Shown here one piece after another: positions 48,501 through 51,500 of a stretch of 64,000 nt of DNA. The first letter of the stretch is position 1. Each line of letters opens with the position of its first letter. Source of the DNA: Escherichia coli (GTDB taxonomy: Bacteria; Pseudomonadota; Gammaproteobacteria; Enterobacterales; Enterobacteriaceae). Position numbers: made by a program. Location of the stretch: assembly GCF_051903065.1 (NCBI RefSeq), contig NZ_CP178438.1. One strand, 5' to 3'.

Positions 48501-51500
48501 TAGCCTGCTGATCCACGCGGCTGCCGGTATCATCCTGATCCACGCCATCCTGATCCATATGTATATGGCATTCTGGGTGAAAGGATCGATTAAAGGGATG
48601 ATCGAAGGGAAGGTGAGCCGTCGCTGGGCGAAGAAACACCATCCGCGCTGGTATCGTGAAATCGAGAAGGCAGAAGCGAAAAAAGAGAGTGAAGAAGGGA
48701 TATAATCTCTTTTGAACTTTAAGCTGAAAATGGCGCTGTAAAAGGCGCCATTTTCATATTGTAGACAACGTGGGCTTTGTTCATCCCGGATGCGTCGTGA
48801 ATGCCTTATCCGGCATGAAAACCCTTCAAATACAATAGATTGCAGTGAACGTGTAGGCCTGATAAGCGTAGCGCATCAGGCAATGTTGCGTTTGTCATCA
48901 GTTTCAAATGGCGCTGTAAAAGGCGCCATTTTTTATTGCGCAACCAGACGGCGTAATCGCGACACATCCACCGTTTTTTCAGCCTCTGCCAGACTCCAGG
49001 CGTTTTGCAGATTCAGCCACATTTGCGGCGAACTGCCGATCACCACGGAAAGTTTAATTGCCATTTCTGGCGTCAAAGCTGCTTTTCTGGTCAGCAATCG
49101 GCTTGCCGTTGAGGGAGCAATTTCCATTGCTCTGGCAAACTCGCGCAGGCTGACATTAAGTTCGTCCAGTGATTCCTGAATAATGTCCCCCGGGCGGGGA
49201 TGATTGGCCATTTTCATTAGTGTCTTTACTCTCAGTAGTGTTCCTTCACTGGGAACACTATCATTATTGTTCCTTCCTACGCAACAATAATCCATTTAGC
49301 CATTTCATGTTGGAGAGTGTGCGATGCTGCGACACCAGGACTGGCAGTCGCAGCAAAGGCCTCTTAGCGGCGGAAATCAATCACCATACGGCCACGGATT
49401 TTGCCTTCTTCCATCTCGGTAAAGATGGTGTTGATGTCCGCTAACGGACGCAGGGCGACTTTCGGCACCACTTTGCCTTCGGCCGCAAACTGGAAGGCTT
49501 CAGTTAGATCCTGGCGCGTGCCGACCGGCGAACCGACCACTTCAATGCCATCCAGCACAAGACGTGGGATATCCAGGCTCATAGACTCCGGCGGCAGACC
49601 GACAGCCACAACACGACCACCTGCACGGACTGCATCAACTGCCGAGTTAAACGCAGCTTTAGCTACTGCTGTTACCACCGCAGCGTGAGCGCCACCGGTT
49701 TTCTCCTGCACAATTTTGGCGGCGTCTTCGGTGCGTGAGTTAATCGCTAAATCTGCACCCATTTCGGTTGCCAGTTTTAACTGCTCATCATTGACATCAA
49801 TGGCGATCACTTTCGCGTTAAAGACATTCTTCGCGTATTGCAGGGCGAGGTTACCCAGACCGCCAAGACCGTAGATAGCAATCCACTGCCCGGGACGAAT
49901 TTTTGACAGCTTAACGGCTTTGTAGGTGGTGACCCCCGCACAGGTAATGCTGCTGGCCGCCGCCGAGTCCAGACCATCTGGCACTTTTACCGCGTAATCG
50001 GCGACCACGATGCACTCTTCCGCCATCCCGCCATCAACGCTGTATCCGGCATTTTTAACTGAACGGCAGAGCGTTTCGTTACCACTGTTACAGTATTCGC
50101 AATGACCGCATCCTTCGTAGAACCACGCCACGCTGGCACGATCGCCTGGTTTTAATGAGGTGACACCTGGACCCACTTCTGCCACCACACCAATCCCTTC
50201 ATGGCCCAGAATTACGCCGGTTTTGTCACCAAAATCGCCATTCTTAACATGAAGATCGGTATGACATACACCACAACACTCCATTTTCAGCAGGGCTTCG
50301 CCATGTTTCAGTGAGCGCAGTGTTTTATCCGTAACGTCAACATGATGAGCCTTCATAGTTCCTCCTTTTCGGATGATGTTCTGCATAGCAGGTGAGGCAA
50401 ATGAGATTTATTCGCCACTACCCAGTATGGATGAGATCTGAAAAAGGGAGAGGGAAATTGCCCGGTAGCCTTCACTACCGGGCGCAGGCTTAGATGGAGG
50501 TACGGCGGTAGTCGCGGTATTCGGCTTGCCAGAAATTATCGTCAATGGCCTGTTGCAGGGCTTCGGCAGAGGTTTTCACCGCCACGCCTTGCTGCTGCGC
50601 CATTTTGCCAACCGCAAACGCAATTGCGCGGGAGACTTTCTGAATATCTTTCAGTTCCGGCAGTACCATACCTTCGCCGTTCAGCACCAATGGTGAATAC
50701 TGCGCCAGCGTTTCACTTGCCGACATCAGCATCTCATCGGTGATACGTGACGCGCCGGAAGCAATAACCCCCAGGCCGATGCCCGGGAAAATAAAGGCGT
50801 TGTTACACTGGGCGATAGGGTAGATTTTATCTTTCCATACCACTGGATTAAACGGGCTGCCAGTGGCGACCAGCGCGTTACCTTCAGTCCAGGCGATAAT
50901 GTCCTGCGGTGTGGCTTCCACGCGTGACGTCGGGTTAGACAGCGGCATCACGATCGGACGCGGACAGTGTTTATGCATCTCACGGATGATCTCTTCCGTA
51001 AACAGCCCGGTCTGTCCTGAGACGCCAATCAGAATATCTGGTTTTACATTGCGCACCACATCCAGCAGTGACAGCACATCGCTGTCGGTATCCCAGTCAC
51101 TGAGGTTTTCGCGCTTCTGCACCAGTTTGGTCTGGAAAGGCAGCAGGTTCGGCATCTTGTCGGTCAGCAGGCCAAAGCGATCGACCATAAAGACTTTCTG
51201 CCGTGCTGCTTCCTCGCTTAATCCTTCACGCTGGGTCTGGGCGATGATCATTTCGGCAATGCCGCATCCCGCTGAACCTGCGCCAAGGAAGACGATTTTT
51301 TTCTCGCTTAACTGACCACCTGCCGCGCGGCTTGCTGCGATCAGTGTGCCGACTGTTACCGCCGCAGTGCCCTGAATGTCATCGTTAAAGGAACAAATTT
51401 CATTGCGATAGCGGTTAAGTAACGGCATCGCATTTTTTTGTGCGAAGTCTTCAAACTGCAACAGCACGTCCGGCCAGCGTTGTTTCACAGCCTGGATAAA

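What the first reader, a model, noticed from the sequence alone, without database searches (positions are those of the whole stretch)
48727..48934. Two identical palindromic hairpins bracketing a REP pair downstream of fdnI
The 27-nt palindrome aaatggcgctgtaaaaggcgccatttt occurs twice, about 180 bp apart, with two REP palindromes between the copies. The second copy overlaps the stop codon of convergent yddM. This looks like a duplicated terminator or BIME-type composite rather than chance.
Basis: seen in the sequence. Interest (0 to 1): 0.3.

Follow-up and report, generated by a model that had tools for sequence, protein, structure and literature searches.

The report
Terminator hairpin duplicated around a BIME-1
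The single two-way transcription terminator that fdnI and yddM once shared has been split into two copies by a common E. coli repeat element (a BIME-1, or REP pair) sitting between them, and the resulting 178-bp unit varies from zero to at least two copies among strains; this is a tidy piece of genome natural history, not a new kind of system.

Summary
The 27-mer occurs exactly twice (48728-48754 and 48906-48932, 178 bp apart), with 0 matches expected by chance. The 151 bp between the copies is one complete BIME-1 (RIB/RIP-type REP pair): a degenerate y REP, an L linker with an IHF-like site, and an inverted z1 REP. It is about 86% identical over its whole length to copies at fepA-entD, gcd-cueO and asnB-nagD.

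The hairpin is not a dispersed repeat. It is the locus's own intrinsic terminator. Citrobacter, Pluralibacter, Enterobacter, a cryptic Escherichia lineage and about 45% of 5,426 E. coli genomes have a single A-tract/stem/T-tract hairpin abutting the yddM stop. About 55% of E. coli, and E. albertii, have hairpin-BIME-hairpin. About 19% (including K-12) have at least two 178-bp units, and K-12 has three hairpins.

The duplication is old, and in most alleles the two hairpins have diverged. Identical copies occur only in the window's lineage and in O157, which points to recent recombination between the copies.

Each gene keeps a proximal hairpin with a shortened U-tract and a distal one with the ancestral tract. 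How the duplication arose is unresolved. A second filled/empty BIME-1 site (gcd-cueO) shows no duplication. This is an ordinary class of element with an unusual local structure.

The parts
48052..48705 (+). fdnI, formate dehydrogenase-N gamma subunit, the last gene of fdnGHI. Its stop codon ends at 48705.
   Evidence: ORF list. RefSeq annotation of identical or near-identical loci. Pfam Ni_hydr_CYTB, E=4.5e-23.
48728..48754 (.). Hairpin copy 1. The stem extends to 48725-48756 (12 bp, 100% complementary). It is the proximal terminator-type hairpin for fdnI. Its + strand tail is AUUUUCAUAUU (4 U) and its - strand tail is AUUUUCAGCUU (4 U, the ancestral flank).
   Evidence: (I4). The left flank is identical to that of the single-hairpin alleles.
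48755..48905 (+). One complete BIME-1 (RIB/RIP-type) element of 151 bp. The homologous block in K-12 is annotated REP120.
   Evidence: Paralogs at fepA-entD, gcd-cueO and asnB-nagD cover 97-98% of the block at about 84-86% identity. The BIME-1 definition is from PMC3333891. The REP120 label is from the supplement of 10.64898/2026.03.23.713779.
48785..48818 (+). y-type REP in iREP orientation. In this strain it is degenerate: about 6 mismatches to the consensus I used, and the CTAC tail has changed to ATGA.
   Evidence: (no match within 3 mismatches), alignment A1, inverted repeat I6 and the unit alignment.
48819..48852 (+). L linker of the BIME-1. It contains an IHF-like motif, ATACAATAGATTG, at 48830-48842, which matches WATCAANNNNTTR at 11 of 13 positions. 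The IHF consensus is from my own knowledge.
   Evidence: Alignment A1. [quoted passage not shown] There is a sub-threshold Rfam ES036/CssrF match at 48818-48860 (30.7 bits against a gathering score of 37.6). IHF binding was not tested.
48853..48882 (+). z1-type REP in the 5'-GTAG orientation, intact.
   Evidence: 30/30 match to GTAGGCCTGATAAGCGTAGCGCATCAGGCA. These columns are invariant in the paralog alignment.
48906..48932 (.). Hairpin copy 2. On the + strand it is followed by UUUUUUAUU and is the only site in the region that the scan scored as terminator-like on that strand. On the - strand it is the proximal hairpin for yddM, with the tail AUUUGAAAC (3 U).
   Evidence: The right flank is identical to that of the single-hairpin alleles.
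48933..49217 (-). yddM, a HigA-family HTH antitoxin-like regulator of 94 aa. Its stop codon at 48933-48935 directly abuts hairpin copy 2.
   Evidence: RefSeq annotations. Pfam HTH_3, E=2.8e-8.

Best explanation
The 27-mer is the intrinsic, originally bidirectional terminator hairpin shared by the convergent genes fdnI and yddM. In an ancestor of E. coli and E. albertii, a BIME-1 (y REP, L linker, z1 REP) came to lie at this hairpin, and the whole palindrome ended up on both sides of the element. That produced hairpin-BIME-hairpin, with both outer junctions unchanged.

The two hairpin copies then acted as 27-bp direct repeats for recombination. This generated alleles with two or more 178-bp units (as in K-12) and homogenised the copies in some lineages. 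The window and O157 carry such homogenised alleles, which is why their two copies are identical.

Functionally (inferred), each gene keeps a hairpin immediately downstream, but with a shortened U-tract. For fdnI this is 4 U instead of 7, and for yddM 3 U instead of 4. The distal copy keeps the ancestral tract. Transcripts therefore end either at the first hairpin or, after reading through the REPs, at the second. The pair of hairpins plus the BIME insulates the convergent genes from each other.

The structure, its ancestry and its population variation are shown. Terminator activity and the way the duplication arose are inferred.
For: - **The repeat is exact and non-random**, and both copies form stable hairpins.
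- **The intervening block is a dispersed BIME-1.** The 151 bp aligns end to end with copies at three other loci and fits the published BIME-1 definition.
- **The hairpin is specific to this locus.** It occurs at 1-4 places per genome across 5,313 E. coli genomes and is absent from the flanks of the paralogs.
- **A single hairpin is the ancestral state.** Citrobacter sp. FP75, Pluralibacter and Enterobacter have one ATGGCGC...GCGCCATTTTTTT hairpin abutting the yddM stop. Escherichia sp. MOD1-EC7003 has the same hairpin sequence as E. coli W.
- **The single-hairpin sequence is not a deletion product.** GGCGCTTTAAGAAGCGCC is not a single-crossover chimera of the left and right copies.
- **The duplication is old.** E. 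albertii and divergent E. coli already carry hairpin-BIME-hairpin with diverged copies.
- **Allele classes in the population.** About 3,001 of 5,425 genomes have at least one unit. About 2,430 records lack the block at this locus. About 1,013 records contain the inter-unit junction. K-12 is a 178-bp, 2.2-copy tandem array.
- **Identical copies are rare.** They occur only in the window and O157 among the 10 hairpin-BIME-hairpin alleles examined. The window's unit equals K-12 unit 1 plus five private changes.
- **U-tract asymmetry** can be read directly from the sequence. The scan flags only copy 2 on the + strand.
- **Minus-strand read-through in K-12.** Rho-dependent termination on the minus strand lies beyond the hairpin array, at 1551885 in vivo and 1551845-1552131 in vitro. 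This fits weak minus-strand termination at the hairpins.
Against: No 3' end has been mapped at either hairpin. The Term-seq tables I could read list none there, probably because fdnGHI was not induced, so terminator function rests on sequence features alone.

Copy 1 on the + strand and both copies on the - strand fail the simple terminator scan.

The direction of change within E. coli is not fully settled. Filled alleles occur in basal lineages and in E. albertii, so the roughly 45% single-hairpin alleles require either a long-lived polymorphism or allele transfer between lineages.

Allele frequencies come from BLAST summary counts and sampled rows, not from a full per-genome parse.

The origin of the duplication is not explained by any known REP/BIME biochemistry. 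At gcd-cueO, a filled/empty pair of the same element family shows no duplication.
Confidence: 0.8

Rival explanations
1. The 27-bp duplication is a true target-site duplication, a mechanistic footprint of BIME-1 insertion. For example, the two feet of the extruded palindrome (cruciform or hairpin) are cut in a staggered way, the element is captured between the ends, and fill-in leaves one complete palindrome on each side.
For: - The topology is exactly that of a target-site duplication. Both outer junctions are ancestral, and the duplicated segment coincides with the palindrome from AAATGG to CCATTTT.
- The foot of this hairpin is a repeated insertion point: IS200C in E. coli, a single REP in three Citrobacter genomes, and an ORF-bearing segment in Escherichia sp. 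MOD1-EC7003.
- At gcd-cueO and asnB-nagD the BIME-1 right end also sits directly against the 5' foot of a terminator hairpin.
- The in vivo insertion mechanism of REPs is acknowledged as unknown.
Against: - The gcd-cueO filled/empty pair of the same family shows no duplication, and a few bases are replaced instead.
- No flanking direct repeats occur at the three paralogs.
- IS200/IS605-type single-strand transposition, the model for RAYT/TnpA-REP, makes no target duplications (my own knowledge).
- This is a single event, so nothing can be generalised from it.
Confidence: 0.15
2. There were two independent insertions followed by recombination. One allele acquired the BIME-1 at the 5' foot of the hairpin and another at the 3' foot. 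Homologous exchange within the BIME between the two alleles then produced hairpin-BIME-hairpin without any duplication mechanism.
For: - Both feet of terminator hairpins are used as BIME-1, REP or IS landing sites. The 5' foot is used at gcd-cueO and asnB-nagD. The 3' foot is used here by IS200C and by the Citrobacter REP.
- E. coli lineages exchange alleles freely, and recombination between the repeats at this locus is evident.
Against: Neither parental allele was seen. The E. coli B allele, which lacks the left hairpin, also lacks 7 bp of the fdnI-side flank, so it is a 35-bp microhomology deletion and not a clean BIME-then-hairpin allele. The model also needs two same-orientation insertions of the same element at one hairpin.
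Confidence: 0.1
3. The hairpin belongs to the mobile element, so the hairpin plus the REP pair is a larger composite repeat that moves as one unit. Alternatively, the identical copies are a chance or assembly artefact.
For: Viewed within one window, two identical palindromes bracketing REPs look like terminal repeats of an element.
Against: - The hairpin is found only in numbers consistent with this one locus.
- BIME-1 paralogs lack it.
- The single hairpin without any REP is the state in other genera.
- The structure recurs in thousands of complete genomes, and 0 chance matches occurred in shuffles.
Confidence: 0.02

Closest known systems
BIME-1 / RIB / RIP elements of E. coli (y REP, L linker with IHF site, z1 REP; Bachellier et al. 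1994, as summarised in PMC3333891)
   Same: The two inverted REPs are of y and z1 type. There is a conserved long linker with an IHF-like motif. The element sits in an extragenic position at the 3' ends of transcription units. It is about 86% identical over its full length to other copies.
   Different: BIME-1 elements are described as occurring as single copies. Here the element is bracketed by a duplicated host terminator. Together with one hairpin it forms a 178-bp unit that is tandemly amplified in about 19% of genomes. The y REP of the window's copy is decayed.
Bidirectional intrinsic (Rho-independent) terminators between convergent genes
   Same: The ancestral single hairpin has an A-tract, a GC-rich stem and a T-tract, so it reads as a terminator on both strands. 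It sits between convergent stop codons.
   Different: In the window this one bidirectional terminator has become two copies. Each copy keeps the good U-tract for only one direction, and that direction is the distal gene's. REP hairpins lie between them.
Transposon or MITE insertions with target-site duplications
   Same: A direct repeat of host sequence flanks an inserted repeat element, and matching empty sites exist in other strains.
   Different: The repeat is 27 bp and coincides with a whole palindrome, not the few bases typical of transposases. Other copies of the same element, including a second filled/empty pair, have no such repeat.
BIME-2 and atypical BIME tandem arrays (variable REP copy number between strains)
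   Same: Copy number at this locus varies between strains (for the general phenomenon; here).
   Different: The repeating unit here is a BIME-1 plus a host terminator hairpin. The recombining sequence is the terminator, not the REPs.

Membership tests
BIME-1 (RIB/RIP) | One y REP and one z1 REP in inverse orientation | tested here: met
   The z1 REP is intact (30/30). The y REP is recognisable in alignment A1 but degenerate in this strain and intact in K-12 and O157. The consensus strings I searched with come from my own knowledge and agree with the paralog alignment.
BIME-1 (RIB/RIP) | A long, conserved L linker between the two REPs | tested here: met
   The 34-nt linker at 48819-48852 aligns with the linkers at fepA-entD, gcd-cueO and asnB-nagD.
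BIME-1 (RIB/RIP) | An IHF binding site in the L linker | tested here: inconclusive
   ATACAATAGATTG matches WATCAANNNNTTR (consensus from my own knowledge) at 11 of 13 positions. The paralogs match at 12 of 13. Binding cannot be tested with these tools.
BIME-1 (RIB/RIP) | Occurs as a single copy per locus | tested here: met
   There is one copy in the window. The feature is not met in K-12-type alleles, which have two copies separated by a hairpin.
Intrinsic terminator | A GC-rich stem-loop followed immediately by a U-tract | tested here: inconclusive
   Copy 2 on the + strand meets the feature (10 pairs, 6 T). Copy 1 on the + strand (4 U) and copy 1 (4 U) and copy 2 (3 U) on the - strand fall below the scan threshold.
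Intrinsic terminator | Transcript 3' ends map at the U-tract | not testable with these tools
   No 3' end is listed at the hairpins in the K-12 Term-seq tables I could read, and the TERMITe supplements contain nothing on these genes. fdnGHI needs anaerobic nitrate induction (my own knowledge).
Transposable element with target-site duplication | All or most copies are flanked by a direct repeat of target sequence | tested here: not met
   No flanking repeats occur at the three paralogs. The gcd-cueO filled/empty pair shows no duplication.
Dispersed repeat family containing the 27-mer | Copies of the 27-mer at other loci | tested here: not met
   There are 1-4 places per genome (median 1) in 5,313 genomes, numbers consistent with copies at this locus only; I did not check the position of every match. 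None occurs elsewhere in the window.
MLVA marker ms09 (179-bp VNTR) | The published primers flank the array | tested here: not met
   Neither primer occurs in the 64-kb window, even allowing 3 mismatches.

The most novel reading that the evidence does not exclude
The palindrome-exact 27-bp duplication may be a preserved footprint of how a BIME-1 integrates: insertion into an extruded or single-stranded terminator hairpin with breaks at both feet. If so, this locus, with abundant empty, filled and amplified alleles, would be a natural record of a REP/BIME insertion event. It would also offer a testable target model (terminator hairpin feet) for the unresolved question of how REPs spread.
Probability: 0.15. 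Interest if true: 0.6.

Novelty: new variant of a known kind. Interest (0 to 1): 0.3.

Why it matters
REP/BIME elements are the most abundant repeats in E. coli, yet how they insert is still unknown. This locus offers a clean series of alleles across thousands of genomes and several species: the ancestral empty site, the filled site with a duplicated terminator, amplified arrays, and independent insertions of other elements at the same hairpin foot. That series can be used to test ideas about target choice, namely terminator hairpin feet.

It also provides natural isogenic-like variants with 0, 1 or 2 units. These could be used to measure what a BIME-1 and a second terminator copy do to the expression of convergent genes.

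Practically, the 178-bp copy-number variation is a ready strain marker. It also cautions annotators that the duplicated terminator is a single evolutionary event and not a repeat family.

Tried and rejected
1. **A 34-bp duplication including yddM's last codon.** The ATCC 25922 allele suggested this. I rejected it after the family alignment showed that ATTG belongs to the BIME-1 left end (CA.ATTG..GACAA). E. albertii and SCPM-O-B-8794 have CAGATTG there, like the paralogs.
2. **The hairpin as part of the mobile unit.** Rejected.
3. **Single-hairpin alleles as deletion revertants.** Rejected for the common allele, because its loop sequence is not a single-crossover chimera of the left and right copies, and it is shared with another Escherichia lineage.
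4. **Identity with the 179-bp MLVA marker ms09.** The primers are absent from the window.
5. **Rfam.** Only sub-threshold matches, to REP/BIME-derived sRNA families.
6. **3' end data.** The Adams et al. supplement has no end at the hairpins. The TERMITe supplements contain nothing on fdnI or yddM. Bachellier et al. 1997 (PMC1207841) is not held.
7. **Counting two-unit alleles by coverage.** This failed because the tool joins the two partial matches in one-unit genomes. I used the band of at least 99% identity, which the sampled rows tie to single-piece matches, instead.
8. **Literature searches for a described terminator duplication at BIMEs or target duplications by REPINs.** These found nothing relevant.
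Full report
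**1. The observation**

The 27-mer AAATGGCGCTGTAAAAGGCGCCATTTT occurs exactly twice in the 64-kb window, at 48728-48754 and 48906-48932 on the + strand. No further match exists with up to three mismatches, and none occurred in 100 shuffles. The copies are 178 bp apart, and identity stops at exactly 27 nt. Each copy folds into a stable hairpin, at -22.1 and -18.3 kcal/mol in 56-nt contexts on the + strand.

fdnI ends at 48705. yddM, on the minus strand, has its stop codon at 48933-48935, so copy 2 abuts the stop codon and does not overlap it. The flanking genes are confirmed by RefSeq annotation of near-identical loci and by Pfam.

**2. What lies between the copies**

The 151 bp at 48755-48905 is not simply two REPs. 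It is one complete element of a dispersed family. In genomes that lack the block at this locus, the best BLAST hit is a paralog covering 97-98% of it at about 84-86% identity. These paralogs lie at fepA-entD, gcd-cueO and asnB-nagD.

The alignment defines the element from about CA.ATTG..GACAA to about TTTGTCATCAGTTTC. It consists of a y REP, a conserved linker and an inverted z1 REP. This matches the published definition of BIME-1: z1 plus y, a long L linker that frequently carries an IHF site, and occurrence as single copies (PMC3333891).

In the window the z1 REP is intact and the y REP is decayed. The L linker carries an 11/13 match to the IHF consensus, which I know from memory; binding was not tested. 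In K-12 the homologous block is annotated REP120 (supplement of 10.64898/2026.03.23.713779).

**3. What the hairpin is**

It is not a repeat family. A 36-nt query containing it finds 1-4 places per genome (median 1) in 5,313 of 5,426 E. coli genomes. Those numbers are consistent with copies at this locus only, although I did not check the position of every match. The BIME-1 paralogs do not carry the hairpin.

Comparison across strains shows intergenic lengths in steps of 178 bp.

| Allele | Example strain | fdnI-yddM gap | Structure |
|---|---|---|---|
| Empty site | E. coli W | 50 bp | One hairpin, GAAAATGGCGCTTTAAGAAGCGCCATTTTTTTA |
| One unit | The window | 227 bp | Hairpin, BIME-1, hairpin |
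| Two units | K-12 | 406 bp | Three hairpins and two BIME-1 copies; TRF reports period 178, 2.2 copies |

Outgroups fix the polarity. Citrobacter sp. FP75, Pluralibacter and an Enterobacter each have a single ATGGCGC...GCGCCATTTTTTT hairpin abutting the yddM stop. Escherichia sp. MOD1-EC7003 has exactly the E. coli W hairpin. The single hairpin has an A-tract, a GC stem and a T-tract. It is therefore the ancestral terminator shared by the convergent genes, with the form of a bidirectional terminator.

**4. History**

E. albertii, E. coli E69 and the divergent E. coli SCPM-O-B-8794 already have hairpin-BIME-hairpin, but the two hairpins differ from each other. The left loop and 3' arm read TGTAAGAG GCGCC or TGTAAAAG GCGTC. 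The right reads TTTATAAG GTGCC or TTTAATAG GCGCA. So the duplication is old.

The common single-hairpin sequence (TTTAAGAA GCGCC) cannot be made by one crossover between left-type and right-type copies. It also shares the G at loop position 6 with the E. albertii left copy. It is therefore the retained ancestral allele and not a revertant.

Approximate frequencies in the E. coli collection:
- About 3,001 of 5,425 genomes have at least one unit.
- About 2,430 records have none.
- About 1,013 records contain the intact unit-to-unit junction.
- In a 40-row sample across the ranking, 3 rows (about 7%) carry an IS200C next to a single hairpin, and 1 row is the E. coli B form, which has lost the left hairpin by a 35-bp deletion.

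**5. Why the two copies are identical here**

Among the ten hairpin-BIME-hairpin alleles examined, only the window and O157:H7 have two identical 27-mers. Their outer flanks remain of the left and right type respectively.

The window's BIME equals K-12 unit 1 plus five private substitutions, and it keeps the GTTTC end of unit 1. The simplest reading is a K-12-like array (A-u1-B-u2-C) that lost u2 and the body of C through an exchange at the shared CATTTT. A short gene conversion would give the same result. In either case it is recent recombination between the hairpin repeats.

Only 23 records are at least 99% identical to the window over this region.

**6. How it probably works (inferred)**

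The insertion replaced the downstream flank of each gene's proximal hairpin.

| Strand and hairpin | Role | Tail | U count |
|---|---|---|---|
| + strand, ancestral single hairpin | fdnI | AUUUUUUUAUU | 7 |
| + strand, copy 1 | Proximal for fdnI | AUUUUCAUAUU | 4 |
| + strand, copy 2 | Distal for fdnI | AUUUUUUAUU | 6 |
| - strand, ancestral single hairpin | yddM | AUUUUCAGCUU | 4 |
| - strand, copy 2 | Proximal for yddM | AUUUGAAAC | 3 |
| - strand, copy 1 | Distal for yddM | AUUUUCAGCUU | 4 |

The simple scan accepts only copy 2 on the + strand.

I infer a two-stage terminator in each direction. The first stage is leaky. The second has ancestral strength and is reached after transcribing the REPs, which are known to act as 3' stabilisers or attenuators in other contexts.

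Published K-12 data fit leakiness on the minus strand. A bicyclomycin-sensitive Rho termination region lies at 1551885, antisense inside fdnI (Adams et al. 2021 supplement). An in vitro Rho-dependent region at 1551845-1552131 overlaps REP120 and the first hairpin. No 3' ends are reported at the hairpins themselves, and the cultures were not grown under conditions that induce fdnGHI.

**7. How the duplication arose**

This is unresolved. The topology is that of a target-site duplication whose limits coincide with the palindrome. That would fit staggered breaks at the two feet of an extruded hairpin followed by capture of the element.

However, the gcd-cueO locus gives a second filled/empty pair for the same family (651 against 502 bp). 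There the element's right end sits against the 5' foot of the terminator hairpin with no duplication, and a few bases are replaced. So duplication is not an obligatory footprint.

Two alternatives remain: recombination between two alleles carrying the element on opposite sides of the hairpin, or replication template switching. I saw neither parental allele.

What is clear is that the foot of this hairpin is a repeated landing site. It has received the BIME-1, IS200C, a single REP in three Citrobacter genomes, and an ORF-bearing segment in Escherichia sp. MOD1-EC7003.

**8. Comparison with known systems, and verdict**

The element is a member of BIME-1, and the hairpin is an intrinsic-terminator-type structure. 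Both are known kinds.

The variant features are the bracketing of a BIME-1 by a duplicated host terminator and the tandem amplification of the 178-bp composite, given that BIME-1 elements are described as single-copy. I found no description of this in the literature I could search. The similarly sized MLVA marker ms09 is a different locus.

Interest is modest. This is a well-explained local structure, with some value as a natural experiment on REP insertion targets and on terminator and REP effects between convergent genes.

Noticed in passing
L004 (E. coli YDC107), about 557-1268. Equivalent window position: between 48932 and 48936.: An IS200C copy is inserted in the T-run at the 3' foot of the single (ancestral-type) hairpin, between the hairpin and the yddM stop. 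This is nearly the same point where the BIME-1 lies. In a 40-row sample across the ranking, 3 rows (about 7%) have this allele.
   Followed up: partly
L007, L008 and L011 (B2-type strains), locus positions about 1018-1297. Window 49218-49363.: In ATCC 25922, an ST131 strain and FDAARGOS_144, an intact RelE/ParE-family toxin gene lies immediately upstream of yddM, with overlapping stop and start. FDAARGOS_1266 has it frameshifted. The window, K-12, W and O157 lack it, so yddM is an orphan antitoxin there, 146 bp from adhP.
   Followed up: no
Window about 49187 (- strand), equivalent to K-12 1552652.: Adams et al. 2021 Term-seq lists a strong 3' end (score about 29,000) 30 nt inside the yddM coding sequence, right after the GC hairpin CCCCGCCCGGGGG. 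It may be the real 3' end of adhP transcripts or an attenuator of yddM.
   Followed up: no
Window 49235-49261.: A perfect inverted repeat, GTAGTGTTCC..GGAACACTAT, lies between adhP and yddM and was flagged as terminator-like on the + strand. It could be an adhP-side terminator or the operator remnant of the lost toxin-antitoxin promoter.
   Followed up: no
K-12 1551845-1552131 and 1551885 (- strand). Window equivalent: the 3' end of fdnI, antisense.: Rho-dependent termination of minus-strand transcription occurs antisense to the end of fdnI, both in vivo (BCM) and in vitro. This implies that transcripts cross the whole hairpin/BIME array in K-12.
   Followed up: partly
Window 48818-48860 (+).: There is a sub-threshold Rfam match (30.7 bits against a gathering score of 37.6, E=6e-4) of the BIME-1 L linker to the sRNA family ES036/CssrF. 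This suggests that the Rfam family was built from a BIME-1 linker transcript.
   Followed up: no
L013, L056 and L057 (gcd-cueO intergenic region).: The BIME-1 here is also present/absent polymorphic, roughly half and half in the sampled rows. A third allele (NCTC9022) has lost the core of the element by deletion between two 8-bp TTCATGCC repeats, leaving only the left outer flank.
   Followed up: partly
L019, L021 and L022 (Citrobacter gillenii, Citrobacter sp. Res13, C. youngae), and L015 (Escherichia sp. MOD1-EC7003).: Independent insertions lie between the single hairpin and the yddM stop. In Citrobacter it is one REP-like palindrome. In the Escherichia lineage it is a segment of about 500 bp with an ORF that looked Nudix-like by eye, although I ran no family search on it. 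None of these duplicates the hairpin.
   Followed up: partly
L003 (E. coli ATCC 11303, B lineage), locus about 504-700.: A 35-bp deletion between short T-run microhomologies removed the left hairpin. In this lineage fdnI is therefore followed directly by the BIME-1 and only then by a hairpin.
   Followed up: partly
Window 29384-29417 (+).: Another y-type REP, with 3 mismatches to the consensus, lies elsewhere in the window.
   Followed up: no
summary (E. coli collection).: Some genomes have up to 4 places matching the left-type hairpin, which suggests arrays of three or more 178-bp units. Five matches are on records labelled as plasmids.
   Followed up: no
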